Of a stretch of DNA of 46,366 nucleotides, positions 14,001 to 46,366 are shown piece by piece. The notes beneath the pieces are model-generated. The model was given only the letters and a program-made list of their open reading frames with translations, was not told the origin of the DNA and ran no database searches. The translations under genes were made by a program, and so were the position numbers. Every line of letters begins with the position of its first letter. Within the stretch, counting starts at the first letter, position 1. Source of the stretch: an uncultured Clostridiaceae bacterium (GTDB taxonomy: Bacteria > Bacillota > Clostridia > DUPQ01); assembly GCA_964636935.1 (NCBI GenBank), contig CAZWVS010000001.1:1-46366 (forward strand), in the 5' to 3' direction.

Positions 14001-15519
14001 GGAAAACAATGAGGAAGGGCTGCTGGGTTCGGCTTTATTCGACAAACCCTATAAAATCAAATTCCATGACTTTGAAATGGAGATCAGGGCTTTGGCTCTT
14101 GCCACGAAGGAAGGCGGATACAACGTCGCCTCGCTTTCTACCGGTCTGCAGACGGGAATAACAAGGACATTCAAAAGAACCGGCATAACCATGCCCATAA
14201 CCGGAACAGTCCAATATTACTCGACCGACATGTATCTGTGGGGAGGGATGCAGCTTTCCGACACGCTGTCCATAGATACGAAGGAGGATTTCGACAGGGT
14301 CATAATATCCTCTGTGTTCGGAGACCCGTTTATAAATTACAATGAATCCAAATCAAAAATCAATATGGACTTCGAAGAATTCGCGCACATCGATGCGGTG
14401 GCCACACCCAAGCTTGCGGATCCGGACTCGGGAATTGTAGAATATGAAACGGACACACTTGAAATGCTCTTCAATTCGGCAATGGACAAATTCGGTTCAG
14501 TCGAAATCGAAGCAAATGCAAGGCTGGGCTATGACAAGGTCATGAAAAGATTCTTCTTCGCCCTGGCAATTTACTATCACGACCCCTCAGGAGGCATACA
14601 GTTGGGTTATGGCAAAATAAACGATATAACGGGAGTGATAGGATACAATCTCGACATCGAATATACGGAGGAAGAAGGGTATATCTTCCCTGAAGAAAAG
14701 CAGGGGTTGTTCAACTATATAGACACCATGGATGTAAACCGTGATGCGTTTGGCAACTACTTCATGGCGGCGACGGCATGGATGCAGCTGGGGTATGACA
14801 CGGGGTCCATGGAACTTCAACTCGGCGAAGTCAGAAACATGTATTTCGTTGTAGAAAAAGGCCCGACGGTTGAAATGGGCGGAAAATATTACGGGCCTTC
14901 CAAAATAACCTCCGTGATGACGGGAAGCGACCTTAAACATATGGGAACCGTTAGAATCGGTTATTATCACCGCGACCGCCTGTTCAAATTCAGTCTCACG
15001 CTGAATGACTTTGGAATGTACGGTTTCACTTTGAACGGCGATGTGGGGTTTGAAATGGGCCCCGGTTACTGGATGCTGAATGTGGGGTATCCCAACACAC
15101 TTGAAGCACAGCTTGGAAGCATGGTAAATGCCGGATTCGCCCTTGCGATAAAAAACACTTTCCCGCCTACCGAAAACTACATCAAGGCCAAGATGGACTT
15201 TGAATACGATACCGGCTATGTGACAATCGCCATCGTATACTTCAGAGCCTACTTAAGGGTAGGTGGCGAAGGGGAGATACACTTCCCGGGAGACTATCTG
15301 TACCTTTCCGCGTACCTGCAGGGCGGACTGGAAGGCGGAATCAAGGTTGCAGGAAAGAGATATAACATAATTTCCCTGAATCTCGATGCCAGGGGCGAGA
15401 TGGAAAAACACAATAACGATTGGAGGCTTGAAGCAAGAGTCAAGGTAAGGTATCATCTCAGCCTGTTGTTCACCAGTGTGGGAGGCTCGGTGACATGGCA
15501 TATGAAACTGGCATTTTGA
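8047..15519 (+). CDS. giant (2,490 aa) cell-surface lipoprotein with an acidic linker, about 7 FN3-like modules and a large uncharacterised beta-rich C-terminal region
   Basis: Uninterrupted 7.47-kb ORF with a GGGGG SD 7-8 nt upstream. Signal peptide with lipobox 'L-A-G-C' (Cys25). Asp/Glu/Pro-rich low-complexity segment (aa ~26-175). Recurrent FN3-type patterns: 'LLRW..', 'VHLRWAQP...GYYVERR...AVYRVQALD', 'YFYKYWVSAID', 'FRVYKA...YYYYKVTSVS', 'VEVRWSG', 'PEIRWNP...GYIVYKS...WYRVKVVD'. The antisense ORFs are short and compositionally odd. Confidence 0.85.
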   Translation: MKRFKKQLCILLIPVLLSTYMLAGCKKKEKTEESPSPGVEEPVESGRPDNQHGDTDQKPPEEGGDQEPWIPVEQMVEQPSDLSEFLDSKTPGARGLLDSPDIADEILEAESLEDILDEPDDAGRLQEIVEEINEALEDMEGEEDREDAERLGQIKDKIEDLFANAKPTPQQLEASTELKGTWSEPNKVLLRWIPQIEWFPENGYYLYRIIDGEVSVIANDLGTKDRIDQIAGLNLQFSPIVTDLYNQSVLDETKMNIIGVTSLQQFNDMVFGEVILNSDMLKISGQNNFEKKQFNLFQQPETVIEKVPESDIFTNTSIHLATQINTAILPIGSIGLVPETQVPDLITEPALTLPEETVMNILDARNSMLTLANTDSEFAEAVGFGYEDDFGDTKYDINEEIEYVLLPLGEGVEVPSTQNVLDENSREGMYSLKVSYGAETPVETPVDLQGYGADGEVHLRWAQPATEYGASIISGYYVERRMESEQEFTRLNDVPVAVSYMEDENNILYEVADYYVDYDVENGDKAVYRVQALDIFGRLSDYNPDPLSIEVKKTVPPGPPEADQPVLSTEVKNRTESFFDTVKSKYPGENGIIIPITVTTEDSKDCIIYRSAAWGNGSFSQPEEVGRVQVPPERSNIVLEKNGIGSIREIIPRKTDSADTDAVFLDTNVTAGYFYKYWVSAIDDWENESAWSSSKVIGYKTERKPDVPDTAEAFMTFNILPDLSLEPAGFMKGRLIDDKVFSGLNLGGTPSMEGFTPRENVDTTPVVEAMAKNIKIGVSLSDTVRAGIKLVPQLLDIKFSNKPEPKDVHDIIALRESDISPDGTADVSWYHYSGDGLGSYNVYRTYIDGGDINQIMTTPIPDILEDYQWSLVESDTVYNKITDTVDKKSGRTYLYMVSLVPEDTGMEDEDVYDGYVPAGWVRVGWERPGDKQISHFRVYKAEVPYFDNDDPEELEWTMVGDNLKYSTYSEDVDQTHAHYYYYKVTSVSVWGVESDDYAIASIRVASTVPPQTPVMLIPFPQKGAVEVRWSGVPYASKYTVFKVKIPRVKDEDLELVQLAAPVMFNKIFTPELGLKIYMPEMQIAPFSSDRPAYSTIAEGISLPSSTVSKAVSSFSTMRLLEPAAIMNDIQITPPGDKVDVFNQIVDKYGILAAAPYGFLDSAAAKLVLWEKVHEMEIPLGQQSTGEFSFVDEDVEFGDTYMYTVIASNDDGLSSERPEPVSVSPRKGEAFPPVTGITASIDEDTGQPEIRWNPAKDPNLSVKESAEFVAGYIVYKSKTKDGEYHQASPFLTTEAYIDDEADAAAINWYRVKVVDVGGYTSDFSTAASTGNIRDFLLPSSTFQKSIIKPNIVIPLIPAGDNEDGADAPANLTADTLFTPIFTLPPIIINLNIPEAVKIAGFDVINITTTDTGSPKKGEGELVLANKYTVPVNLTVTSWNDQNEVTDGSLTLDTPVQVGNTGVHITGLDVSTASNKGFASGYVLKAGNQQNENLMGDLYSLRFSNTEISPGGVIKITDIPEFRYDNIKISGMESITVNLSAFDSSAPAVIQEESIRKGGKTVYFLFGTGFINLMHGTAENDLGMETMDNKGLEYAFNIINFDRDGRMNGTMTITETRMMRTVIPAGLGIKTSDSKLVYSNGQPDKTNSYIKGKVMLPFDTFVDDAPTYVDFESIAKTRLGDTLVNKTDVSGILGMNPDAVKSGSMQITPVQKSIVDVGMFYIAEQAQINTLLVLPLELIEAESVSNIPINITNWGGRGFTVSNKTLMPTLVGNDDEEIGIIGSNITIDMDRESSTADALTDETKDNQWTGMIVKSGRVSLPPAFIKTEQDKRVSFNLTPGDMIYDRNGFFYQSQAYSPQGIPVNFGDQLGGFRDAYANSIYIDLYNNKMNLEIKGNVGIPLFGFQRVNVTIYTSEELGKIVCSVEETEKFDPAGTGEVYLSVTGGHLLPDGLHMDGTLDLNFEGGIETENVKFTELIIPSDMEGLKKENNEEGLLGSALFDKPYKIKFHDFEMEIRALALATKEGGYNVASLSTGLQTGITRTFKRTGITMPITGTVQYYSTDMYLWGGMQLSDTLSIDTKEDFDRVIISSVFGDPFINYNESKSKINMDFEEFAHIDAVATPKLADPDSGIVEYETDTLEMLFNSAMDKFGSVEIEANARLGYDKVMKRFFFALAIYYHDPSGGIQLGYGKINDITGVIGYNLDIEYTEEEGYIFPEEKQGLFNYIDTMDVNRDAFGNYFMAATAWMQLGYDTGSMELQLGEVRNMYFVVEKGPTVEMGGKYYGPSKITSVMTGSDLKHMGTVRIGYYHRDRLFKFSLTLNDFGMYGFTLNGDVGFEMGPGYWMLNVGYPNTLEAQLGSMVNAGFALAIKNTFPPTENYIKAKMDFEYDTGYVTIAIVYFRAYLRVGGEGEIHFPGDYLYLSAYLQGGLEGGIKVAGKRYNIISLNLDARGEMEKHNNDWRLEARVKVRYHLSLLFTSVGGSVTWHMKLAF

Positions 15520-16094: not shown

Positions 16095-16099
16095 TGGTA

Positions 16100-16316
16100 A
16101 TGCAATGAAGGAGAATATTAACCGGAAGGTTTTGTTGCAGAAAGAAAGCGGTTGATGCGAGCTTTTACAAAAAACCGGTGAACGCTGACTCCCGAGCATC
16201 CTTTCCCAATAAGAAAGGACGAAAACGCCGCGTTAAGGCGCCGAGTGCTTCCGAAAGGAAGAATCAGGGTGGTACCGCGAGTTGCTCTCGTCCCTCAGGG
16301 GATGGGAGTTTTTTGT
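16100..16316 (+). promoter_or_regulatory. T-box riboswitch leader (Ala specifier) with terminator/antiterminator
   Basis: Canonical T-box sequence AAUCAGGGUGGUACCGCGAG at 16262-16281. A downstream hairpin (CUCGUCCC / GGGAUGGGAG) is followed by UUUUUU (16284-16316). The candidate specifier GCU (16184-16186) sits in '...GGUGAAC-GCU-GA...' and matches the downstream alaS. Confidence 0.85.
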
Positions 16317-16338
16317 ATTGAAAAAACAGAGGTGTGTG

Positions 16339-18951
16339 ATGAAGAAGTTGTCATTAAATGAATTGAGAAAAGGCTTTTTGGAGTTTTTCGAAGACAAGGG
16401 TCACCTGGTGGTCCCGAGTTTTTCGCTGGTTCCGGAAAACGACCCCAGCATATTGCTCATAAATGCGGGAATGACCCCGTTAAAGGAATATTTCACAGGC
16501 GCGAAGAAACCCCCGGCATACAGGATGGCCACTTGTCAGAAATGCATCAGGACCCTCGATATCGACAGGGTTGGCAAGACCGACAGGCACGGGACCTTTT
16601 TTGAAATGCTGGGCAACTTTTCATTCGGGGATTATTTCAAAAGCGAAGCCATAAAATGGGCATGGGAGTATTTCACAGAAGTGCTGGATATCCCGGAAGA
16701 GCTTTTATCGGTCTCCGTTTATGAAGAGGACGAAGAGGCCTACGGGATTTGGAGGAACGAAATCGGGCTGCCGGAAGGCAAAATAGTGCGCCTTGGCAAG
16801 GAGGACAATTTCTGGGAACACGGTTCGGGACCTTGCGGCCCCTGTTCCGAAATTTTCTTCGATCGCGGAAGCGACAAGGGCTGCGGGGATGAAAGCTGCG
16901 CGCCCGGATGCGACTGCGACAGGTTTATTGAAGTATGGAACCTTGTTTTCACGCAGTTTGAAAAAACCGAAGACGGCGAATACATACCACTTGAAAAGAA
17001 AAACATAGATACGGGCATGGGGCTGGAAAGGCTGGCCTGCGTAATCCAGGGTGTGGACAACCTTTTTGAAGTGGACACCGTCAAAAGGATACTCGACAAA
17101 GTATGTGAAATTTCAGGTAAAGAATATAGAAAAGATAAAAAAACGGATGAGTCCATACGGTTGATCACCGACCATGTCAGAAGCACTGTGATGATGGTTT
17201 CCGACGGGATAATCCCCTCGAACGAGGGCAGGGGGTATGTGCTTAGAAGGTTGATCAGAAGAGCTGCAAGGCACGGGAAACTTCTGGGAATAGAAGACAA
17301 GTTCCTTGTGCCGCTGGTGAAAACGGCAATCGGGGAATCCATGGACGCCTACCCCGAACTGAATGAAAAAAGCGAATACATTGAAAAAGTAATCGGGATT
17401 GAAGAGGACAGGTTCAGGGACACCGTTGACCAGGGGCTGCAGATCCTGGGTTCTTTCATGGAGCAGGTGCAAAAAGAAGGAGGGGACACACTTGAAGGAT
17501 CAATGGTTTTCCGTCTTCACGACACCTACGGTTTTCCGTATGAGCTGACAGAAGAGATAGCCTCCGAGAGGGGTCTTGAAACCGACCGTGAGGGTTTTGA
17601 AAGGGAAATGGACAAGCAGAAGGAAAAAGCAAGAAAAGCGCAAAAAACGGAAGAAGGTGTCCGGGCCTGGGGCGAAGGTGAACAGGAGTATTTCGAAGGG
17701 CTCGCTCCCACGGTTTTCACCGGCCATGGAAACCTTTCCGATGATGCAAAAGTCATTCGTGTGCTTGTAATGGAAAACGAGATTGAAATTGCGCTGGATA
17801 AAACACCGTTTTACGCCGAAAGCGGAGGCCAGGCGGGGGATACGGGGATTATTGAGTCCGACGGGTTTTCAATGACTGTCAGGGACTGCACAAAAACCCA
17901 TGAAGGCGTTTTCGTCCATAAGGGTGTCATAAACCATGGCGAGGTAAAAGAAGGGGACAGGGTCGTCTGCAGGGTAGACGTAAAAAGAAGGAAAGCGATT
18001 GCTAAAAATCACACAGCGACCCACATATTGCATTACGCATTAAAAGAAGTCCTTGGAGGGCACGTTGCCCAGGCGGGATCATATGTGGGACCGGACAGAC
18101 TCCGTTTCGACTTCAATCACTTTGCGGCCATGACGGGACAGGAAATCCAAAAAGCAGAGAAACTGGTGAACGAAAAGATTTTTGAAGACAAGCCCGTTGA
18201 AACCCGGGAGATGGACATAGACCGGGCCCGTGAAGAGGGTGCCACGGCGCTTTTCGGCGAGAAATACGGGGATAAGGTCCGGGTTGTCAGCACCGGGGGG
18301 TTCAGCATGGAGCTGTGCGGCGGAACACATCTTGACAAAACTTCGGCCGCGGGGTTGTTTGTCATCGCATCTGAAAGCGGCGTGGCCGCCGGGGTCAGGA
18401 GGATTGAGGCGCTTACCGGTGAAAAAGCCCTAGAGTATCTGCTTCAAAGACGTGATCATGTAAAAGAGGTGGCTGATATTGTGCGCTCCGGTGAACATGA
18501 AATAACCGAAAGGGTTAAATCGCTGCAACAGGAGATCAAGGAGTCCAGACGTGAGATTGAAGAGCTTAAAAAAAGGATTGCAAAGGGCTCCGTTTCCAAT
18601 GTGTTTGACAAGCCGGAGGATATAAACGGCACAAAAGTGATTGTTTCTGAAATCGAGGGGGCGGATTCCGACACCCTTCGAACCATGTGCGACGCGGCAA
18701 GGGAGAAGTATGACGATTGCGTGGTTGTGCTCGGCAGCGCAGGCGACAAGGTTGTCTTTACCGCCGCGGCTACAAACAAAGCCGTAAAAAAGGGCATACA
18801 TTCGGGTAAAATAATAGGTGAAGCGGCAAAAATCACAGGCGGAGGCGGAGGCGGAAGGCCGGACATGGCCCAGGCCGGAGGAAAGGATCCGGGAAAATTG
18901 GATGAAGCCCTCGACAGGGCCAGGGATATCATCAGGGAGGTACTGGCATGA
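16339..18951 (+). CDS. alaS: alanine--tRNA ligase
   Basis: 'FFEDKGH', 'NAGMTPLK', 'RHGTFFEMLGNFSFGDYFK'; editing-domain 'HTATHILH' and 'CGGTHL'; C-terminal 'GGGGGGRPDMAQAGG' (DHHA1). I prefer the ATG at 16339 (SD AGAGGTG). The track start at 16282 lies inside the T-box terminator. Confidence 0.95.
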   Translation: MKKLSLNELRKGFLEFFEDKGHLVVPSFSLVPENDPSILLINAGMTPLKEYFTGAKKPPAYRMATCQKCIRTLDIDRVGKTDRHGTFFEMLGNFSFGDYFKSEAIKWAWEYFTEVLDIPEELLSVSVYEEDEEAYGIWRNEIGLPEGKIVRLGKEDNFWEHGSGPCGPCSEIFFDRGSDKGCGDESCAPGCDCDRFIEVWNLVFTQFEKTEDGEYIPLEKKNIDTGMGLERLACVIQGVDNLFEVDTVKRILDKVCEISGKEYRKDKKTDESIRLITDHVRSTVMMVSDGIIPSNEGRGYVLRRLIRRAARHGKLLGIEDKFLVPLVKTAIGESMDAYPELNEKSEYIEKVIGIEEDRFRDTVDQGLQILGSFMEQVQKEGGDTLEGSMVFRLHDTYGFPYELTEEIASERGLETDREGFEREMDKQKEKARKAQKTEEGVRAWGEGEQEYFEGLAPTVFTGHGNLSDDAKVIRVLVMENEIEIALDKTPFYAESGGQAGDTGIIESDGFSMTVRDCTKTHEGVFVHKGVINHGEVKEGDRVVCRVDVKRRKAIAKNHTATHILHYALKEVLGGHVAQAGSYVGPDRLRFDFNHFAAMTGQEIQKAEKLVNEKIFEDKPVETREMDIDRAREEGATALFGEKYGDKVRVVSTGGFSMELCGGTHLDKTSAAGLFVIASESGVAAGVRRIEALTGEKALEYLLQRRDHVKEVADIVRSGEHEITERVKSLQQEIKESRREIEELKKRIAKGSVSNVFDKPEDINGTKVIVSEIEGADSDTLRTMCDAAREKYDDCVVVLGSAGDKVVFTAAATNKAVKKGIHSGKIIGEAAKITGGGGGGRPDMAQAGGKDPGKLDEALDRARDIIREVLA

Positions 18952-21067: not shown

Positions 21068-21958
21068 ATTAAAAACAATCTGGACCAATATCATGTCTTC
21101 TACATCGCCGCGATGCAGGGAAGCTTTTCGAAAGCGGCGGAAATCCTGTTTGTTTCCCAGTCGGCCGTAAGTCAGTCGATCATGCAGCTAGAGAATGCCA
21201 TGGGGACTAAGCTTTTCAGAAGAATACCCCGCGGGATAGAGCTCACCCGGGAGGGCAGGATTCTTCTTGAGCATGTGGAACCCGCTGTCAACCTTTTGAA
21301 AAGCGGGGAAAGGCGCATCAGCGAAAGAATATCAACAAAAAACAAGAATGTAACAATAAGCGCTTCGGATACACACTGCATGTACTATCTGCCCGACCAT
21401 CTGGAAAGATTCAAGTCTCAAAACCCCGATGTCGGAATAATCGTAGCCAACAAGACAACCCTGGAAACCATGAATCTATTGAAGAAGGGTGAAGCCGACA
21501 TAGGTGTGGTGAATCTGCCTGACAAACAGATAAAAAATGTGAGGATATGGGCAAAGAGTGAATTGAATCACTCGTTCATTGCGAAAAAGGGATTAACACA
21601 AGCCGTGAAAAGCCGGAAAAGCCCTGCGCAAATTGCAAAAATGCCGCTGATAATGCTTGAAAAGGGGACGGGTCACAGGAGCCACCTGGATAAGTATTTC
21701 ATGGACAAGGGACTCGAGGTCGAACCGAAAATGGAGCTTGGTTCAATAGAACTGTTGATAAAATTCGCGGCAATGGGCATGGGGGTGAGCTGTGTGGAAA
21801 GCGAGTTTCTGCGAAAAAGCCCGTATTCCCACGAGGTCGAAGCGATACCGGTTAAAAAGGATATAGGGAAAAGATACATAGGTGTGATAACATTGAAAGG
21901 TGTTCCGCTTTCAGGACCGGCGGAAGCATTTGTAAGCTTGATTACGGAGGCCGAATGA
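21068..21958 (+). CDS. LysR-family transcriptional regulator (probable non-canonical ATT start)
   Basis: The HTH 'LDQYHVFYIAAMQGSFSKAAEILFVSQSAVSQSIMQLE' begins upstream of the first ATG (21113). The frame is closed by TGA at 21059-21061. The only SD-spaced initiator is ATT at 21068, 6 nt after AAGGTGA, giving a typical 296-aa LysR length. The C-terminal substrate-binding domain is present. Confidence 0.75.
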   Translation: MKNNLDQYHVFYIAAMQGSFSKAAEILFVSQSAVSQSIMQLENAMGTKLFRRIPRGIELTREGRILLEHVEPAVNLLKSGERRISERISTKNKNVTISASDTHCMYYLPDHLERFKSQNPDVGIIVANKTTLETMNLLKKGEADIGVVNLPDKQIKNVRIWAKSELNHSFIAKKGLTQAVKSRKSPAQIAKMPLIMLEKGTGHRSHLDKYFMDKGLEVEPKMELGSIELLIKFAAMGMGVSCVESEFLRKSPYSHEVEAIPVKKDIGKRYIGVITLKGVPLSGPAEAFVSLITEAE

Positions 21959-24423: not shown

Positions 24424-25230
24424 TCAACGTGTCTTCGTGATGCTGCAGCGGGACAATATTTTTTCAAAACAACGGTTTACAACCGCCCCGTCGGTGGCGC
24501 ATGCATATAGTATCACCGTGCTCTTGAATTCGGGGAAATAGCGTATCATCAGTTTCCCGTGTAGAACAATAGGCGGGTAATCCCCATTTGCCGGCGTGGA
24601 AGGCCGGCCGTATTGAATATAGTTCCTTAAAAATACGGAATATTCGTGGCTGAGTCCGCATGTGGCCATGTCGGCTTCGATGCTGTACCAACCGCTGTAA
24701 CCTATATATTCCTCCGTTTCAACTGAATAACCCGACAGTTTCCAAAGCGGATCGTCACAACCCAGATCCCTTAGGACAAGCCGGGTGTAATCATATTTGA
24801 AAACATCCATGACCTGTTCCATGGACAGTGTGTCTTCTTCAATGAAGCCATAGGGCGAACCGTCGGGAAGGCTCAAAGCATAAGCGCCGTAGAAAGCCGA
24901 ATGATACGGGGAACCCTCGTCAAAAATCATATTTTTGCGGGTGAGCGGGTCGAAGGCGGGAAAAACATATATGACGGACATCTTCACATCTTCATGATAA
25001 TCCGATCTGAATCCGGAGGCATTGTAGACAAACGGGCTCGCAAACCAATCATTTTCAAAGGTGGCAAGGCCGCCGGGCACATATATTTCAAACCCGTTTT
25101 CACTCATGACGCTTTTCGACCGGTGAATCGCTGAATAGACAGGCATTGTCAAAGAGCATCGGAGCGGATAGTAGAACCATATGCTCAAAACAACCACAAC
25201 AGCTAAAATTATTAAGGGCACCCTTTTCAT
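24424..25230 (-). CDS. hypothetical membrane-anchored protein (N-terminal TM/signal anchor, Tyr/Phe/Asp-rich ectodomain)
   Basis: 'MKRVPLIILAVVVVLSIWFYY' signal-anchor, then a 245-aa soluble-looking domain. I prefer the start at 25230 over 25254. No obvious SD precedes either start. Confidence 0.6.
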   Translation of the reverse strand: MKRVPLIILAVVVVLSIWFYYPLRCSLTMPVYSAIHRSKSVMSENGFEIYVPGGLATFENDWFASPFVYNASGFRSDYHEDVKMSVIYVFPAFDPLTRKNMIFDEGSPYHSAFYGAYALSLPDGSPYGFIEEDTLSMEQVMDVFKYDYTRLVLRDLGCDDPLWKLSGYSVETEEYIGYSGWYSIEADMATCGLSHEYSVFLRNYIQYGRPSTPANGDYPPIVLHGKLMIRYFPEFKSTVILYACATDGAVVNRCFEKILSRCSITKTR

Positions 25231-25384
25231 GATTAAATGATAGCACATTTGCATTGTTGTTCGTTGAAAGCAATATCGGCATGTGATATCCTAAAGCCAC
25301 GGGGGATTATAAATATAATCATCGAATCATTCATAAAAATCTTTGACATTCTGCCATAACCCTGAAAAAAGAGGAGGGATTGAG

Positions 25385-35413: not shown

Positions 35414-37540
35414 TCATCCTCTTTTCAAAATCTCCCCTGTGGCGCTGTCGAGAAGCACGGTTTCCGCAGGAGTTAAATCGATGTTTACATTTTTGCCGTT
35501 TGTGAGGGTGACGGTTCGGCCGCCGCCTTCTTTTGTGTGAATTGAGATAAGGCCCATCCCCGATATGAGCGAGTCTCCGGGTCCGGTATACAGATGCACC
35601 CCGGCCTTTTTGAATATCTTTGCGAAAATTTCAGGCGTTGTAAAAGGAAGAGATGAAAACCATACAGTATGGTTTTCAGCTTTACGGCTCACCAGCGCGG
35701 GGGATTTCCTACCCTTTGGGATGAATATATCAGTTTCGGGAAATTCAGAAGGCGTCTTATACATCTTTTCATATAAACCGTGAAAACCGTATGTCAGATT
35801 TGCATAATTTATCGAAGGCGCGCCGCCATAGGTCTCCCTGTACAATTCGAACCCGGTTATATCGCTGACAAGGGAAATGTCGGAAGAATCGCCGTCCAGA
35901 TACCCCGGGGCATAAAACCAGATTATATGACTATCGCCGCCGTATGCCTTCTTTTTTATATAGTCGCGCTGTTTTTTTGTCAAAAGGAATGTGTTCATTA
36001 AGACTACGCATTTATATCTTGAAAGATCCGCTATTTCAATATCGCTTAGATATATGGCGTCGACGGAAGCTCCGCTCTTTAAAGCCGCCGGGTAAGCGAT
36101 ATTTATGCATGCGGCGTCAGTTATGGGATCCTTTTGGGAGTTCAGGGCGGTGTGCTTGAAAACCTGTGTGTCGAAGACAAGGAGGACATCCGAAGGGTTG
36201 GCATATTCCGCCTCCATATATTTTTCGGTAAGGTTTTTAAGGGATGCTATTTCGTCGGCATAATCCCTGTCGGCCCACCAGCCCGTAGTGTTGTACGGCC
36301 CGAAGTCGTAATACCACAATCCTCCGCCCTTTATAAGGGGGAACATGGTGTTTCTCCTCAACACCTGTTTCGATTCATATTTTTCAAAAACCGGCATTCC
36401 CCCCATTATTGTCCCTGTGTGCTCCGGCTGGTCCATTTCGTCAATCCACAATTTGCCATGCAAGAAGGCGGATTCGAGCAGCCCTCTGCTCGCGCCTGCA
36501 CCTCCAAGCGAACGCAGCTGCCCGTCATAGGCCTGCGGGCCGCACATACAGTCGACATATTCGCTTTTTAGTATGGTCTGTTCGTCGAGATGACCGCCCG
36601 CCGCGGAGCGTCCGAAAAGCGATATGTAGTAACCGTAGAAAGCGCCCGTTATTATTGGGGCAGGCCAGTTTTTCTTAACCGTCCTGCAAAAATGCACTAT
36701 GCTTTCAGAAACCAGGCTGTGCTGGCAGTCGTAATAGTCGCTCATATTTCTTTCCAGCAACGGGTCTCTGAAGATTCCGTCGCGGTTGTTCAATCTCTGA
36801 TCCATATCCGGCACACACGCTGTTTCTATTTTGACGTCTTTTCGCCCCCATGCCTTTTGAAGGGCCCTGTCGTCAAGATATTTCTTTATTAGATATTCAC
36901 TGAAGGCTTTTTGCATGCATTCCCCGGTGTCCGGCTCGTGTGAATTGAATGCCCAATAGTGATGCTCTCCGTAAACGCCGGTCGCCGGTTGAATCCCGGC
37001 AAGGGAGGCCGCTTCGGGAGTCGCAGACAGCTCTTCAAGGAAGAGCCTTAACATCCTGGTCGAATCCTCAAGCCATTTTTCCGAAGCGAAGCTGTGACGG
37101 TAAACGGGGCGCAAATCCTGGATGAGATATCTCTGAACTCCGGGAATGTCTTTTTCAGGCCCGGCTTTTGTATCAGCGAACCCGGTGAGCTGATCCGGAT
37201 TTTCATGATTCCACCATTTCGGAGGTGTCGTGTGAAAACGGAAGAAAACTTTCGCGTCACTACAGATGTCGGTAACACCGCGGATCTGCTTCCGGGCTAT
37301 GGTTATGTCGAAACCGCCGTCGGGAAACCACATGTCGTCCAGCCATATGTCAAGCTGGAAAAGCTTGAACCCCCTTTCGGCAAAACGCCTTATGGCGTCC
37401 GCCGGCGTCTCCTCATATGAGAGCCTTCCGCCGGGGCAGTCCGTAAGCGAATATATCACAGGAGCGAAATGCTCCCCGTCAATCGTTATGGTGGGGCGCC
37501 CCTTGTGCATCGTTATCCCCGAATCAAGCAGTTTTTTCAT
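35414..37540 (-). CDS. putative glycoside hydrolase (TIM-barrel + trimerisation-like C-domains, GH42-like architecture; family uncertain)
   Basis: 708-aa ORF with SD GGAGG 7-8 nt upstream. It is Trp/Tyr/Asp-rich and has patterns such as 'FKLFQLDIWLDDMW' and 'LWIDEMD', as in cytoplasmic glycosidases. It sits next to another GH-like gene. Confidence 0.45.
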   Translation of the reverse strand: MKKLLDSGITMHKGRPTITIDGEHFAPVIYSLTDCPGGRLSYEETPADAIRRFAERGFKLFQLDIWLDDMWFPDGGFDITIARKQIRGVTDICSDAKVFFRFHTTPPKWWNHENPDQLTGFADTKAGPEKDIPGVQRYLIQDLRPVYRHSFASEKWLEDSTRMLRLFLEELSATPEAASLAGIQPATGVYGEHHYWAFNSHEPDTGECMQKAFSEYLIKKYLDDRALQKAWGRKDVKIETACVPDMDQRLNNRDGIFRDPLLERNMSDYYDCQHSLVSESIVHFCRTVKKNWPAPIITGAFYGYYISLFGRSAAGGHLDEQTILKSEYVDCMCGPQAYDGQLRSLGGAGASRGLLESAFLHGKLWIDEMDQPEHTGTIMGGMPVFEKYESKQVLRRNTMFPLIKGGGLWYYDFGPYNTTGWWADRDYADEIASLKNLTEKYMEAEYANPSDVLLVFDTQVFKHTALNSQKDPITDAACINIAYPAALKSGASVDAIYLSDIEIADLSRYKCVVLMNTFLLTKKQRDYIKKKAYGGDSHIIWFYAPGYLDGDSSDISLVSDITGFELYRETYGGAPSINYANLTYGFHGLYEKMYKTPSEFPETDIFIPKGRKSPALVSRKAENHTVWFSSLPFTTPEIFAKIFKKAGVHLYTGPGDSLISGMGLISIHTKEGGGRTVTLTNGKNVNIDLTPAETVLLDSATGEILKRG

Positions 37541-37573: not shown

Positions 37574-37582
37574 ATTTTATCA
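37574..37582 (-). promoter_or_regulatory. candidate extended -10 promoter (TGATAAAAT on the minus strand) of the GH gene
   Basis: The reverse complement of 37574-37582 reads TGATAAAAT. It lies about 34 nt upstream of the ATG at 37540, and the -35 position reads only TTTTAC. Confidence 0.45.
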
Positions 37583-37600
37583 GAAACCCCGCCGCTGTAA

Positions 37601-37980
37601 AACAAAGGGTGCCCTAAATTTTAAAACAAGTAAAACAAGGGTGCCCTAAACAGAAATAAAGCTTCATGACGGGTAAAAAAGCGCTAAAAACAAGGATTGA
37701 ACAAAGGGTGCCCTAAATAGAAACAAGGTTTCATGCGGGCAAAGAGCGTTCTGAACGAGAAGCGAACAAAGGGTGCCCTAAACAGAAATAAAGTTTCAAG
37801 ACGGGTAAAAAAGCGCTAAAAACAAGGATTGAACAAAGGGTGCCCTAAATGAAAGCAAAGTTTAATTGCGGTAAAAAAGGCACTTGGAACAAGAAAAAAA
37901 CAAAGGGTGCCCTAAATAGAAACAAGGTTTCATGCGGGCAAAGAGCGTTCTGAACGAGAAGCGAACAAAGGGTGCCCTAT
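37601..37980 (+). repeat. tandem array: 7 same-orientation copies of AAAGGGTGCCCTAAA, ~66-bp units organised as a ~132-bp higher-order repeat
   Basis: Motif copies start at 37604, 37636 (AAGGG variant), 37703, 37768, 37835, 37902 and 37967. 37703-37780 is identical to 37902-37979 (78 bp). 37636-37717 differs from 37768-37849 at 2 positions. Confidence 0.9.
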
Positions 37981-38031
37981 AGAGGGCTAAAGAGGGGATT
38001 TGAATGAAAATGTATTAAGCCGAACAGTTCA

Positions 38032-38060
38032 TTGTAAAATGAGCTTTGATTTAATATAAT
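38032..38060 (+). promoter_or_regulatory. candidate sigma-A promoter of the cmk operon
   Basis: TTGTAA (38032-38037), 17-bp spacer, TATAAT (38055-38060). Confidence 0.55.
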
Positions 38061-38119: not shown

Positions 38120-38782
38120 ATGACATTTGCTGTAGCGATAGACGGTCCGGCCGGTGCGGGTAAGAGCACCGCTGCAAAAATACTTGCGAAAAAGCTGGGC
38201 GCCATATACCTGGACACAGGAGCGATGTACCGCACTGTAGCCCTTGAGGCTATCAGAAAAGGCATCGATACAAAGAACGAGCAGGCACTAACCAACTTGG
38301 TTGAGGACATCCGCATAGATATAGATTTCAGTGAAGAGGGGCAGATGATATATCTTGACGGAGAACCTGTGAACGGGCTTATCAGAACGGCGGAAGTATC
38401 CATCGGAGCTTCCGATGTCGCCGTGTTCCCTTCGGTGAGAGGGAAGATGGTTGAGATGCAGAGGAGAATCGCTTCCGAGCAAACAGTCGTTATGGACGGA
38501 AGGGACATAGGCACATATGTCCTAAAGGATGCAAAATACAAGTTCTTTCTCACGGCAACGGTTGATGAAAGAGCCAAAAGGCGTTTCAAGGAAATGAAAG
38601 AAAAGGGGATCGAAGCGGATTTTGACCATATAATTAAAGATATAAAGTACAGGGACAACAACGATACAAGCAGGAAAATGTCTCCGCTTAAGCAGGCTGA
38701 CGATGCAATACTGATCGACACCACCAATCAAACCATAGATGAAATGGTGGAAGAAATGGCAGGTTATATAGATGAGGCATAG
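38120..38782 (+). CDS. cmk: cytidylate kinase
   Basis: 'IDGPAGAGKST' P-loop, 'YLDTGAMYR', 'VMDGRDIGT'; 220 aa. The fully overlapping antisense ORF was rejected. Confidence 0.93.
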   Translation: MTFAVAIDGPAGAGKSTAAKILAKKLGAIYLDTGAMYRTVALEAIRKGIDTKNEQALTNLVEDIRIDIDFSEEGQMIYLDGEPVNGLIRTAEVSIGASDVAVFPSVRGKMVEMQRRIASEQTVVMDGRDIGTYVLKDAKYKFFLTATVDERAKRRFKEMKEKGIEADFDHIIKDIKYRDNNDTSRKMSPLKQADDAILIDTTNQTIDEMVEEMAGYIDEA

Positions 38783-42827: not shown

Positions 42828-42914
42828 TGGTGCGAGAAGTGGGATTCGAACCCACACGTACTTGCGTACACTAGAACCTGAATCTAGCGAGTCTGCCAGT
42901 TCCACCATTCTCGC
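42828..42914 (-). tRNA. tRNA-Leu (anticodon CAG), CCA encoded
   Basis: The reverse complement reads GCGAGAA...TTCTCGC-A-CCA (7-bp acceptor). Anticodon arm CTAGA-TTCAGGT-TCTAG gives CAG. Long variable arm TGTACGCAAGTACG; T-arm GTGGG-TTCGAAT-CCCAC. Confidence 0.93.
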
Positions 42915-44390: not shown

Positions 44391-44416
44391 AACCGTCCGT
44401 AAAAGGGCGGTTTTTC
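44391..44416 (+). terminator. rho-independent terminator after murD
   Basis: Stem AACCGTCC / GGGCGGTT (one mismatch) followed by TTTTT. Confidence 0.6.
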
Positions 44417-44447: not shown

Positions 44448-44656
44448 AAAGGGTGCCCTAAAAAAAGATAGATAAAAGGGTGCCCTAAAAAAGATGGATA
44501 AAAGGGTGCCCTAAAAAACAATGGACAAAAGGGTGCCAAAAAACGGTTAAAAGAAATGAATATGTTTCAACAAAATAAAGGGTGCCCTAAAAAAATCACG
44601 TTATAAATCGATAAAGGGTGCCCTGAACGCTAAACGAAATCAAAGGGTGCCCTAAA
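44448..44656 (+). repeat. second array of the AAAGGGTGCCCTAAA motif (7 same-orientation copies, 26-49-bp spacing)
   Basis: Copies start at 44448, 44475, 44501, 44528 (degenerate, AAAGGGTGCCAAA), 44577, 44613 (..CCCTGAA) and 44642. The first four form a 26-27-bp tandem repeat. Confidence 0.9.
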
Positions 44657-44679
44657 AGCGGGGCATGGCGGGGAGGATG

Positions 44680-44688
44680 TGATAAAAT
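44680..44688 (+). promoter_or_regulatory. candidate extended -10 promoter (TGATAAAAT) of glpK
   Basis: TGATAAAAT lies about 33 nt upstream of the glpK ATG, with SD GGAGGAG at 44705-44711. There is no recognisable -35 hexamer. Confidence 0.45.
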
Positions 44689-46313: not shown

Positions 46314-46366
46314 GCGGGTGTAGTTCAGTGGTAGAACACCAGCTTCCCAAGCTGGTTATGAGGGTT
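46314..46366 (+). tRNA. tRNA-Gly (anticodon CCC), 3' part truncated by the window end
   Basis: GCGGGTG acceptor 5' half, D-arm TAGTTCAGTGGTAGAACA. Anticodon arm CCAGC-TTCCCAA-GCTGG gives CCC. The sequence ends within the T-arm. Confidence 0.85.

What the first reader, a model, noticed from the sequence alone, without database searches (positions are those of the whole stretch)
37601..37980. Higher-order tandem array of a 15-nt GC-core/A-flank motif fills the divergent GH / cmk intergenic region
The 580-bp gap between the minus-strand glycoside hydrolase gene and cmk holds no ORF of 60 aa or more. It is occupied by 7 same-orientation copies of AAAGGGTGCCCTAAA. The motif core AGGG-TG-CCCT is a 4-bp dyad, and it is flanked by A-runs. 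Copies recur every 65-67 bp. The intervening segments are themselves two alternating, related ~48-nt sequences, which gives a ~132-bp higher-order repeat. One 78-bp stretch is duplicated exactly, and an 82-bp stretch recurs with 2 changes. The near-identity implies recent duplication or homogenisation. It is not a CRISPR: the repeat is too short and the spacers are repeated. I see no terminator hairpin, promoter or known operator consensus (cre, LexA, CodY, CIRCE, Rex, parS) in it. Candidate roles include a multi-site landing pad for a DNA-binding regulator or nucleoid protein, a transcribed repeat RNA or protein sponge, or a species-specific REP-like element.
Basis: seen in the sequence. Interest (0 to 1): 0.72.

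Follow-up and report, generated by a model that had tools for sequence, protein, structure and literature searches.

The report
Clostridial 14-mer site array between promoters
The repeat array is real: it is seven copies of an exact 14-base signal (AAGGGTGCCCTRAA) that a patchy group of uncultured Clostridia keeps unchanged near particular promoters and even inside genes, most likely a docking site for an unidentified DNA-binding protein that here has recently multiplied from a single ancestral copy.

Summary
There are 7 head-to-tail copies of AAAGGGTGCCCTAAA at 37604-37981, against 0.17 window matches expected by chance.

The element extends beyond the reported interval:
- A second 7-copy array lies at 44448-44656, between murD and glpK.
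- A lone copy overlaps the start codon of a membrane-protein gene (25212-25226, minus strand).

The functional unit is the 14-mer AAGGGTGCCCTRAA, not the 66/132-bp repeat:
- It recurs in at least 5 divergent Clostridia/Bacillota MAGs and in metagenome contigs.
- Spacer lengths (17-67 bp) and spacer sequences are unrelated between arrays.
- Arrays sit at the same intergenic regions in different lineages.
- Copies also occur inside genes, in all three frames and on both strands.
- At 16 orthologous sites the motif shows 1 change in 176 nt, against 28% divergence in the flanks (P~2e-24).

The closest relative has exactly one copy at the GH|cmk position, abutting the conserved GH -35. The window's array is therefore a recent local expansion. 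Other relatives have no copies at all.

Best reading (confidence about 0.45): a multi-site cluster for an unidentified, lineage-restricted, sequence-specific DNA-binding protein.

Rivals: an uptake-sequence-like genomic tag, a STAR-like RNA element, a REP/RAYT element. CRISPR is excluded.

The closest known architecture is the S. aureus STAR element, whose function is also unknown.

The parts
37604..37981 (+). Array 1: seven head-to-tail copies of the motif in the divergent GH|cmk gap. Unit order: short-a-b-a'-c-b-end.
   Evidence: Copies start at 37604, 37636, 37703, 37768, 37835, 37902 and 37967. Spacing is 32, 67, 65, 67, 67, 65.
37604..37618 (+). First copy, the ancestral 'seed'. It is orthologous to the single copy in the closest relative and lies 2 nt from the GH -35 hexamer. 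Its core spans about -40 to -47 from the predicted GH start site.
   Evidence: L127 has one copy at the aligned position. (promoter-like site).
37700..37780 (+). Left copy of the exact 81-bp duplicate (unit b plus flanks).
37899..37979 (+). Right copy of the exact 81-bp duplicate. The 199 bp between the two b units is exactly what is missing from the independent Logan assembly L033.
37574..37601 (-). Promoter-like site for the GH42-like gene: TTTACA-16-TAAAAT with TG. It is conserved in the relative L127.
   Evidence: This is a consensus match plus conservation; it has not been shown experimentally.
38032..38060 (+). Promoter-like site for cmk: TTGTAA-17-TATAAT. L127 has TTGTAT-17-TATAAT. It lies about 55 bp downstream of the last motif copy.
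35414..37540 (-). 708-aa GH42-like beta-galactosidase homolog, transcribed divergently from the array.
   Evidence: no Pfam hit for the protein itself. (homologs carry PF02449 or are named beta-galactosidase).
38120..38782 (+). cmk (cytidylate kinase).
   Evidence: PF02224, 4.4e-73.
44448..44656 (+). Array 2: seven copies starting at 44448, 44475, 44501, 44528 (2 mismatches), 44577, 44613 (1 mismatch) and 44642. Spacing is 27, 26, 27, 49, 36, 29. The spacers are unrelated to those of array 1.
44391..44415 (+). Intrinsic-terminator-like hairpin of murD (8-bp stem plus U-run), immediately ahead of array 2.
   Evidence: -14.8 kcal/mol, z -5.1. The simple scan did not flag it.
44679..44688 (+). 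Extended -10-like TGaTAAAAT ahead of glpK, 30 nt after the last motif core. Seen by eye only.
   Evidence: Sequence. The scan found no full sigma-70 match.
25212..25226 (-). Lone copy overlapping codons 2-5 (MKRVP) of a conserved membrane-protein gene. It is preceded by TGcTATCAT plus 6 nt plus ATG, the arrangement expected for a leaderless mRNA.
   Evidence: The same arrangement occurs in L123, L009, L012 and L031.
24424..25230 (-). Conserved membrane protein of unknown function (no Pfam or NCBIfam hit; a family of only 18 clusters). Its promoter carries the motif in most motif-positive lineages.

Best explanation
The conserved object is a 14-bp DNA site, AAGGGTGCCCTRAA. Its core is a quasi-dyad, AGGG-TG-CCCT, with A/T flanks. 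I propose that it is the high-affinity binding site of an unidentified, lineage-restricted, sequence-specific DNA-binding protein, either a regulator or a nucleoid/ParB-KorB-like protein.

Single sites sit near particular promoters. At GH|cmk, the ancestral site lies directly upstream of the GH -35. In this genome that site, together with about 50 bp of neighbouring DNA, was tandemly duplicated by slippage or unequal exchange. The 81-bp exact duplicate shows the latest event is very recent. The result is a 7-site cluster that fills the non-transcribed space between the divergent GH and cmk promoters. Array 2 fills the terminator-to-promoter space ahead of glpK in the same way.

The cluster would raise local occupancy of the protein, or titrate it, and so modulate the adjacent promoters.

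What is shown:
- The site is under strong nucleotide-level constraint.
- It recurs at the same promoters in different lineages.
- The arrays are labile local expansions.

What is inferred:
- The reader of the site is a protein acting on double-stranded DNA.
- Binding affects transcription.
- The extra copies matter at all; they could instead be tolerated by-products.
For: 1. Only the 14-mer is conserved. 120 non-identical copies collected on the 8-mer GGGTGCCC alone still show AA at 93-100%, T at 91-99% and RAA at 76-96% in the flanks. Spacers range from 17 to 67 bp and are unrelated between arrays.
2. Constraint. At 16 orthologous sites in three MAG pairs the motif shows 1 difference in 176 nt, against 272 in 960 in the +/-30-nt flanks (P=2e-24). 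This includes copies antisense to genes, which argues for a DNA-level reading.
3. Enrichment. Exact singles number 33 against 0.06 expected in 171 kb.
4. Promoter placement.
   - In five genomes the last copy ends exactly 17 nt before the extended -10 of the membrane-protein gene, although the intervening sequence differs. In three of those five (L009, L012, L031) a second copy lies at +6 to +19, an operator-like bracket.
   - In L016/L046 a copy ends 12 nt before TGgTATAAT.
   - At GH the site abuts the conserved -35 in both the window and L127.
5. Arrays lie in non-transcribed positions, either between a terminator and a promoter or between divergent promoters.
6. The same intergenic regions carry the motif in different lineages, with different copy numbers. 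8 of 17 motif-ascertained loci, at least one in each of 5 MAGs, fall in one roughly 15-kb syntenic neighbourhood.
7. Dependence on a dispensable trans-factor. Related genomes with the same genes and promoters have 0 copies in about 98 kb.
Against: - No cognate protein was identified. Neighbouring small ORFs are SatP-type transporters, not regulators.
- The site is nearly all-or-none: 33 exact singles against 12 one-mismatch singles. That is unlike the graded sites of most regulators.
- Copies inside genes occur in all three frames. Five sit in one GDSL-like gene, and one reshapes a LysR HTH from KAAE to KGAL. This looks more like an uptake-sequence or Chi-type genomic tag than a regulon.
- Spacing within arrays shows no helical phasing (17-67 bp).
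- Distance to the -10 varies between loci and lineages: about -27, -33, -44, -50 and -90.
- The invariant central TG and the asymmetric flanks are odd for a symmetric dimer.
Confidence: 0.45

Rival explanations
1. Genomic self-tag maintained by molecular drive or genome-wide selection, analogous to the DNA uptake sequences (DUS/USS) of Neisseriaceae and Pasteurellaceae, to Chi, or to cyanobacterial HIP1. An accessory machine, such as an uptake receptor or a recombination or repair factor, prefers DNA carrying the exact 14-mer. Copies therefore accumulate by point substitution wherever they can be tolerated, including inside genes. Intergenic tandem duplication is a cheap way to add copies.
For: - Copies lie in all three frames and on both strands inside unrelated genes. 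They were built in place by substitutions and are kept between species.
- A conserved LysR HTH segment changed from KAAE to KGAL to carry the motif.
- The site is all-or-none exact.
- It is enriched more than 500-fold.
- Its distribution is patchy, as expected for a dispensable factor, with rapid decay where it is absent.
- An intragenic orientation bias is also known for uptake sequences (PMC2346458).
Against: - In the window itself there is only 1 single copy in 46 kb. 14 of the 15 copies sit in two arrays.
- Copies are strongly clustered and tied to particular promoters and one neighbourhood.
- A fixed 17-nt register to a -10 is kept in five genomes.
- From my own knowledge: DUS and USS do not form direct-repeat arrays, and sequence-specific uptake is not known in Firmicutes.
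- A 14-mer is far longer than any known Chi.
Confidence: 0.2
2. STAR-like RNA-level element. The arrays are transcribed in the sense direction. Adjacent AGGGUGCCCU copies pair with one another (10 bp with two G.U pairs) or with sense copies in mRNAs, including the copy at +6 of the leaderless membrane-protein mRNA. This would affect RNA stability or translation, or sponge an RNA-binding protein.
For: - Sense-strand RNA folds better than shuffles (z -2.93 and -3.72). The antisense strand does not (z -1.63 and -1.01), because G.U pairs become C.A mismatches.
- The architecture matches STAR elements. About half of STAR copies are transcribed, and adjacent STAR motifs pair in vitro.
- There is a sense bias in genes (18:7) and in tandem gene contexts (8/8).
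Against: - Arrays lie after terminators and upstream of the next promoter, with no promoter-like site ahead of them.
- Antisense copies inside genes are conserved just as well.
- Base-composition skew alone predicts a sense:antisense ratio of about 2.9:1, so 8/8 has P~0.09.
- Spacers as short as 3-8 nt leave no room for a STAR-type spacer hairpin.
- There is no Rfam hit.
Confidence: 0.12
3. The array is a selectively neutral minisatellite. One functional site happens to seed slippage, and the six extra copies do nothing.
For: - The closest relative manages with one copy.
- Copy number at orthologous loci ranges from 0 to 8.
- Units within an array are near-identical, which indicates recent turnover.
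- An independent assembly has 4 copies instead of 7.
Against: - TRF found multi-unit tandem arrays in the window only at the two motif loci. No comparable motif-free minisatellite is present.
- Arrays recur independently at many loci and in many lineages, always with the motif intact and spacers free to differ.
- This is a sub-case of the best explanation, not a true alternative to the site being functional.
Confidence: 0.1
4. REP/BIME-type or MITE-like mobile repeat spread by a REP-associated tyrosine transposase (RAYT).
For: A 257-aa Y1 transposase-like gene lies 71 nt downstream of a motif copy in L008. It is conserved in L026 (75% identical). Its best NCBIfam match is REP_Tyr_transpos, E 2.6e-16.
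Against: - The RAYT match scores 59.8 bits against an 80-bit cut-off.
- Only one flank of that gene carries a copy, and the window and other loci hold no homolog.
- The motif cannot form a hairpin: 4+4 bp with a 2-nt loop, and 0 inverted repeats.
- Copies are head-to-tail, not alternating.
- In-frame copies inside genes cannot arise by insertion.
- Spacers are locus-specific.
- There are no matches in plasmids or phages, and no relevant matches in viral contigs.
Confidence: 0.04

Closest known systems
STAR elements (Staphylococcus aureus repeats; Cramton 2000; Purves 2012, PMC3532100; Mediati 2023 preprint)
   Same: - A 14-bp GC-rich direct repeat in a lower-GC Firmicute.
- Interspersed with recurring spacers that are near-identical within a locus and different between loci.
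- Many intergenic loci.
- Loci expand and contract.
- Abundance is patchy among related species.
- Adjacent motifs can pair as RNA.
- Function is unresolved.
   Different: - The consensus is unrelated: TNTGTTGNGGCCCN against AAGGGTGCCCTRAA.
- STAR loci are reported as not conserved between species. Here the same intergenic regions carry the motif across lineages.
- STAR spacers are at least 40 bp with a conserved RNA stem. Here spacers are 3-53 nt with no common structure.
- STAR is described as intergenic. Here conserved copies also lie inside genes in all frames.
DNA uptake sequences (Neisseria DUS, Pasteurellaceae USS) and other genome-wide tags (Chi, HIP1)
   Same: - An exact short oligomer, hugely over-represented.
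- Present inside genes in all frames and both orientations, and conserved at orthologous positions.
- Able to bend protein sequence.
- Has A/T-rich flanks.
   Different: - Those tags are spread at roughly one per kb, and from my own knowledge they do not form direct-repeat arrays.
- Here the copies are clustered, promoter-associated and sparse in the window (1 single in 46 kb).
- No uptake specificity is known in Firmicutes.
Plasmid/phage centromeres and dispersed ParB-family operators (F sopC: 12 x 43-bp repeats each holding a SopB site; RK2 KorB OB sites TTTAGCSGCTAAA at varied distances from promoters); chromosomal DnaA-box clusters
   Same: - Tandem units, each carrying one short protein site.
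- Copy number is not critical.
- The same site also occurs singly, next to -35 regions, far upstream and inside genes.
- Sites are near-exact.

These comparisons come from my own knowledge of those systems and were not tested here.
   Different: - No par or rep genes lie nearby.
- The context is chromosomal.
- The site is not a true palindrome.
- There is no match to plasmids or phages.
REP/BIME elements with RAYT transposases
   Same: Short, dispersed, clustered repeats. A RAYT-like gene lies next to one copy in two MAGs.
   Different: - There is no hairpin.
- Copies are head-to-tail.
- Copies occur inside genes.
- The RAYT match is below the cut-off.

Membership tests
CRISPR array | Repeats of about 23-55 nt separated by unique spacers of similar length. 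| tested here: not met
   The conserved repeat is 14-15 nt. Spacers are themselves repeated (81-bp exact duplicate) and range from 3 to 53 nt.
CRISPR array | cas genes nearby. | tested here: not met
   Pfam scans of 32 of the window's larger ORFs (including both arrays' immediate neighbours except glpK) show none. The 2490-aa ORF, the 725-aa, 344-aa and glpK ORFs, and the small ORFs were not scanned.
REP/BIME (RAYT-associated) | An imperfect palindrome able to form a stem-loop. | tested here: not met
   There are 0 inverted repeats in the gap. The core is 4+4 bp around a 2-nt centre.
REP/BIME (RAYT-associated) | Strictly extragenic, with clusters in alternating orientation. | tested here: not met
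   Copies inside genes occur in three frames. All array copies are head-to-tail.
REP/BIME (RAYT-associated) | A cognate RAYT gene flanked by the repeats. | tested here: inconclusive
   A Y1 gene lies next to one copy in L008/L026. It scores 59.8 bits against an 80-bit cut-off, and only one flank carries a copy. The window holds no homolog.
STAR-type interspersed intergenic direct repeat | A short GC-rich direct repeat with recurring, locus-specific spacers at many intergenic loci. | tested here: met
   Spacers are alike within an array and unrelated between arrays.
STAR-type interspersed intergenic direct repeat | Consensus T(G/A/T)TGTTG(G/T)GGCCC(C/A), spacers of at least 40 bp, Staphylococcus. 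| tested here: not met
   The consensus is different. Spacers are mostly under 40 bp outside array 1. The host is an uncultured Clostridia lineage.
STAR-type interspersed intergenic direct repeat | Copy number varies between strains at a fixed locus. | tested here: inconclusive
   L033 has 99.8%-identical flanks and 4 copies against 7. The 199-bp difference lies between two identical 81-bp repeats, so it could be an assembly collapse. Between species the copy number clearly varies (1 against 7; 3 against 8).
DNA uptake sequence (DUS/USS) | An exact oligomer inside genes in all frames, conserved at orthologous positions. | tested here: met
DNA uptake sequence (DUS/USS) | Roughly even genome-wide density of about one per kb. 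| tested here: not met
   The window has 1 single copy in 46 kb plus 2 arrays. Loci ascertained by array have about 1 single per 8-15 kb, with hot spots. No whole genome was available.
DNA uptake sequence (DUS/USS) | Preferential uptake by a competent host with a cognate receptor. | not testable with these tools
   Needs culture or transformation assays, or at least whole genomes.
Transcription-factor operator set (regulon) | Sites at promoters, conserved at orthologous promoters across species. | tested here: met
   Membrane-protein promoter (17-nt register, 5 genomes), the AP_endonuc_2 operon, the ppdK-degT gap, and the GH -35.
Transcription-factor operator set (regulon) | An identified cognate regulator; graded site strength. 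| tested here: not met
   No regulator was found near the sites. The sites are all-or-none.
Plasmid-type centromere or iteron array | Tandem units, each with one binding site. | tested here: met
Plasmid-type centromere or iteron array | Adjacent par/rep genes, on a plasmid or phage. | tested here: not met
   The neighbours are housekeeping or sugar-metabolism genes. There is no match in plasmids or phages, and none relevant in viral contigs.
Any Rfam RNA family | A covariance-model match. | tested here: not met
   0 matches at E<=1 on both arrays. At gathering thresholds the window shows only a T-box and tRNAs.

The most novel reading that the evidence does not exclude
The 14-mer is the recognition tag of a dispensable, lineage-restricted machine that acts genome-wide and is strong enough to rewrite coding sequence. 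It could be the first uptake-sequence-like (DUS/USS-type) self-recognition signal in Gram-positive bacteria. Alternatively it could mark a new chromosome-organising, centromere-like system whose sites nucleate in arrays within one chromosomal neighbourhood.
Probability: 0.2. Interest if true: 0.85.

Novelty: new variant of a known kind. Interest (0 to 1): 0.6.

Why it matters
If the reading is right, a group of uncultured Clostridia from digesters and sediments carries an undescribed cis-element. It has unusually sharp specificity (about 24 bits) and is held constant at promoters and inside genes across lineages with 39-49% GC.

It gives a clean handle for finding its trans-factor. Motif-positive and motif-negative relatives with the same gene order already exist, which makes phylogenetic profiling possible.

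It is also a natural example of how a single binding site grows into a tandem array. The 1-copy relative and the 7-copy array here are two stages of that process.

It further offers a second, independent system beside the S. aureus STAR elements for asking what interspersed direct-repeat arrays do in Firmicutes. If the tag reading were true instead, it would extend uptake-sequence biology beyond Proteobacteria.

If the sites are merely operators of one more regulator, the finding is modest.

Tried and rejected
- CRISPR: rejected. The repeat is too short, the spacers are repeated, and no cas genes are present.
- Known RNA family: Rfam at gathering thresholds and at E<=1 found nothing.
- Protein-coding repeat: rejected. 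Copies in one gene use all three frames.
- Alternative-sigma -35 element: rejected. Copies inside genes and within arrays have no -10 at 17 nt, and array periods of 17-19 bp leave no room (reading).
- Sigma-54 -24/-12 promoter on the reverse strand: the GGCAC part matches, but there is no TTGC at the right distance (by eye).
- LysR T-N11-A box: no fit (by eye).
- TetR-like divergent regulators next to arrays: those roughly 200-aa ORFs are SatP/YaaH transporters.
- An Xre-type HTH gene next to the L053 array: it is absent from the orthologous L038 locus, which has more copies.
- RAYT link: the match is below the cut-off and one-sided.
- Polarity as evidence for an RNA role: composition skew alone predicts about 2.9:1.
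- Variant 'dialects' in motif-less relatives: none were found by k-mer counts.
- Plasmid, phage and viral origin: no relevant matches.
- Literature: neither strand of the 10-mer appears in any relevant paper.
- Other arrays sharing the 11-mer: many metagenome and genome hits carry different flanks (period-20 termite-gut arrays, AAAAGGGTGCCCTCATG arrays, high-GC coding repeats). I set them aside as unrelated.
- Exact-protein look-ups for GH and MurD found no other assembly.
Full report
**1. The observation**

The 579-bp gap between the minus-strand 708-aa gene (35414-37540) and cmk (38120-38782) holds seven plus-strand copies of AAAGGGTGCCCTAAA. Five are exact and two have one mismatch. They start at 37604, 37636, 37703, 37768, 37835, 37902 and 37967, with spacings of 32, 67, 65, 67, 67 and 65. 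The whole window holds 16 matches at up to 2 mismatches, against 0.17 expected by chance.

TRF reports periods of 67 and 132. The units run short-a-b-a'-c-b-end. The two b units and their flanks are an exact 81-bp duplicate (37700-37780 = 37899-37979). The stretch 37637-37718 recurs at 37769-37850 with 2 changes.

No ORF of 60 aa or more lies in the gap, and there is no inverted repeat. cmk is confirmed by Pfam. The 708-aa protein has no Pfam hit of its own, but its homologs carry PF02449 (GH42) or are named beta-galactosidase.

**2. The element is larger than the finding**

TRF and the pattern search show a second seven-copy array at 44448-44656, between murD and glpK. Its spacings are 27, 26, 27, 49, 36 and 29, and its spacers are unrelated to those of array 1.

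There is also a lone minus-strand copy at 25212-25226. That copy overlaps codons 2-5 (MKRVP) of a membrane-protein gene. An extended -10 (TGcTATCAT) lies 6 nt upstream of the ATG, which is the layout of a leaderless mRNA.

**3. What is conserved is a 14-mer**

A two-copy pattern scan of one genome per GTDB species found arrays in five Clostridia/Bacillota MAGs with GC 39-49%. Many of these arrays sit at contig ends. The metagenome scan added more member loci.

I collected 120 non-identical copies using only the 8-mer GGGTGCCC. They give the consensus ttnAAGGGTGCCCTRAA, with the flanking AA, T and RAA conserved at 76-100%. Spacers range from 3 to 53 nt. They are alike within an array and unrelated between arrays.

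In 171 kb of non-redundant member loci there are 33 exact single 11-mers (0.06 expected). There are only 12 one-mismatch singles (2.1 expected). The site is nearly all-or-none.

Neither strand of the 10-mer appears in a relevant paper.

**4. Nucleotide-level constraint, including inside genes**

In L008/L026 a GDSL-like gene carries five copies in all three frames, read as RVP, GCP and KGAL. Further copies lie in M55 peptidase, HemW and DegT genes, and one lies antisense in LepA. In L038/L053, copies in a DegT gene and an amidohydrolase gene lie on both strands.

Across 16 orthologous sites in three MAG pairs (73-75% overall identity), the 11-mer shows 1 difference in 176 nt. The +/-30-nt flanks show 272 differences in 960 (binomial P=2e-24).

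In two MAGs the LysR helix-turn-helix reads SFSKGALKL, encoded by the exact motif. The window's ortholog has the canonical SFSKAAEIL. The signal is therefore read as nucleic acid. Copies are built by substitution, and the constraint is strong enough to alter a protein.

**5. Where the copies sit**

*At GH|cmk.* Promoter-like sites flank array 1. For GH the site is TTTACA-16-TAAAAT with TG (37601 to 37574, minus strand). For cmk it is TTGTAA-17-TATAAT (38032-38060). These are consensus matches, but both are conserved in the relative L127.

*Array 2.* It starts about 30 nt after the murD terminator hairpin.

*Other lineages.*
- In L038, L053 and L007 the arrays begin right after the ppdK terminator's T-run. 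A conserved TGATATAAT lies 33-37 nt past the last copy.
- At the membrane-protein gene, the last copy ends exactly 17 nt before the extended -10 in L009, L012, L031, L006 and L022, although the intervening sequence differs. A second copy lies just after the ATG in L009, L012, L031, L123 and the window.
- In L016/L046 a copy ends 12 nt before TGgTATAAT of the AP_endonuc_2 operon. In L006/L023 a copy lies about 90 nt upstream of the same conserved promoter. The window, L123 and L120 have none there.

**6. History of this particular array**

- An independent assembly (L033, SRR14492185) encodes the identical Cmk and has 99.8%-identical flanks, but 4 copies. The missing 199 bp is exactly the b-to-b interval. 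This is either real recombination or an assembly collapse.
- The closest relative found (L127; GH 79% identical; GC 37%) has a 191-bp gap with one copy. It aligns with the window's first copy, 1-2 nt from the conserved GH -35.
- A more distant syntenic relative (L128/L129; GH 63% identical) has no copy. It has a hutP-like gene between GH and cmk, and only 77 bp between murD and glpK.

The seven-copy array is therefore a lineage-specific, recent expansion of one promoter-proximal site.

**7. Patchy distribution**

I fetched loci through homologs of the membrane protein, not through the motif. L119, L120/L121, L122, L124, L125 and L126 have zero copies in about 98 kb. L123 has only the copy just after the ATG.

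The motif-positive loci L006 and L022 share gene order and the N-terminus MKKAA with the motif-negative loci L120 and L124. This implies repeated loss or gain. The motif-less loci showed no alternative over-represented oligomer. This pattern fits dependence on a dispensable trans-factor.

**8. Recurrence at the same loci**

8 of 17 motif-ascertained loci, at least one in each of the five MAGs, fall in one roughly 15-kb syntenic neighbourhood. Its gene order is purA, lysR, engB, DUF4153, membrane protein, SLH protein, flavodoxin, (satP), AP_endonuc_2 operon. The window holds this neighbourhood at 20-32 kb.

Other recurrent sites are the ppdK-degT gap (three lineages) and GH|cmk. The neighbouring genes are largely for sugar or cell-surface glycan metabolism: GH42-like, GH20b-like, DegT, GDSL, AP_endonuc_2/GFO, GlpK and an SLH protein. 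They also include cmk, trkH and a phosphoribosyltransferase.

**9. Orientation**

Intergenic copies point towards a co-oriented downstream gene. This holds in 8 of 8 independent tandem-gene contexts. Copies inside genes run 18 sense to 7 antisense.

The motif is A/G-rich on its sense strand, however. The window's base composition alone predicts a sense:antisense ratio of about 2.9:1. Codability also favours sense copies, because AAG GGT GCC CTN reads KGAL. I therefore do not count polarity as evidence for an RNA role.

**10. RNA reading**

AGGGUGCCCU pairs with itself through two G.U pairs. Sense transcripts of the arrays would fold better than shuffled sequence (z -2.9 and -3.7). Antisense transcripts would not (z -1.6 and -1.0).

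No Rfam family matches. No promoter-like site precedes the arrays.

**11. Mobile-element reading**

A RAYT-like Y1 gene sits next to one copy in L008/L026. It scores 59.8 bits against an 80-bit cut-off, has no copy on its other flank, and has no homolog in the window. Plasmid, phage and viral collections give nothing relevant.

**12. Interpretation**

Four things are shown:
- A sharply defined 14-bp signal is under strong constraint.
- It is associated with particular promoters across lineages.
- The arrays are labile local expansions.
- The signal depends on something that some relatives lack.

The most economical mechanism is a sequence-specific DNA-binding protein. Its single sites act at promoters, and its arrays are multi-site clusters. 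I give this a confidence of about 0.45.

The all-or-none exactness, the copies inside genes in every frame, and the reshaped LysR segment keep an uptake-sequence-like or other genome-wide tag alive as a rival (about 0.2).

A STAR-like RNA role is possible but is disfavoured by position (about 0.12). A purely neutral expansion of one functional site gets about 0.1. A REP/RAYT origin gets about 0.04.

In architecture the closest known thing is the S. aureus STAR element, whose function is itself unresolved. This element differs from STAR in three ways: its consensus, its conservation of location between species, and its copies inside genes.

Noticed in passing
window 44448-44656: A second seven-copy array of the same motif lies between the murD terminator and glpK. 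Its spacers are short (26-49 bp periods) and unrelated to those of array 1.
   Followed up: yes
window 25212-25245 (minus strand): A lone motif copy encodes residues 2-5 (MKRVP) of a conserved membrane protein of unknown function. An extended -10 (TGcTATCAT) lies 6 nt before the ATG, which suggests a leaderless mRNA. The arrangement is conserved in L123, L009, L012 and L031.
   Followed up: yes
L008:6195-7190 and L026:5479-6504: A GDSL-like hydrolase gene carries five motif copies in all three reading frames, all conserved between two MAGs. This is a local hot spot next to DegT, M55 peptidase, lepA and hemW.
   Followed up: partly
L008:758-1531 and L026:49-813: A 257-aa IS200-like Y1 transposase homolog sits at a conserved position downstream of hemW. 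Its best match is to REP-associated tyrosine transposases, below the cut-off. A motif copy overlaps the hemW stop codon just upstream.
   Followed up: partly
L128:9385-9804 (and L129:1365-1784): In a syntenic relative, a HutP-family (RNA-binding antiterminator) gene occupies the GH|cmk gap, where the window has the array. The window holds no remnant of it by tblastn.
   Followed up: partly
L009:6944-7825, L031:1655-2568, window 21113-21958: The LysR-type regulator in the shared neighbourhood carries the motif inside its HTH-coding segment in two MAGs (SFSKGALKL). The window's ortholog does not (SFSKAAEIL).
   Followed up: yes
L053:654-1253: An Xre-type HTH (PF01381) gene is inserted between ppdK and the motif array in L053. 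It is absent from the orthologous L038 locus.
   Followed up: partly
window 16096-16298: A T-box leader (120.6 bits) lies directly upstream of the alanyl-tRNA synthetase gene (16282-18951).
   Followed up: no
window 8047-15519: A very large ORF (2490 aa) on the plus strand. It was not scanned against any library.
   Followed up: no
window 42828-42914 and 46314-46366: A tRNA-Leu(CAG) lies on the minus strand between plus-strand genes. A tRNA gene is cut off at the right end of the window.
   Followed up: no
L036, L037, L045, L071, L072; L039, L047, L049 and related loci: Unrelated tandem arrays in metagenomes share the same 11-mer AAGGGTGCCCT but have different flanks. One group has period 20 (AGAAGGGTGCCCTTTACTGC). 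Another reads AAAAGGGTGCCCTCATG with GGGCAGACATG units. I set them aside as not members, and what they are is unknown.
   Followed up: no
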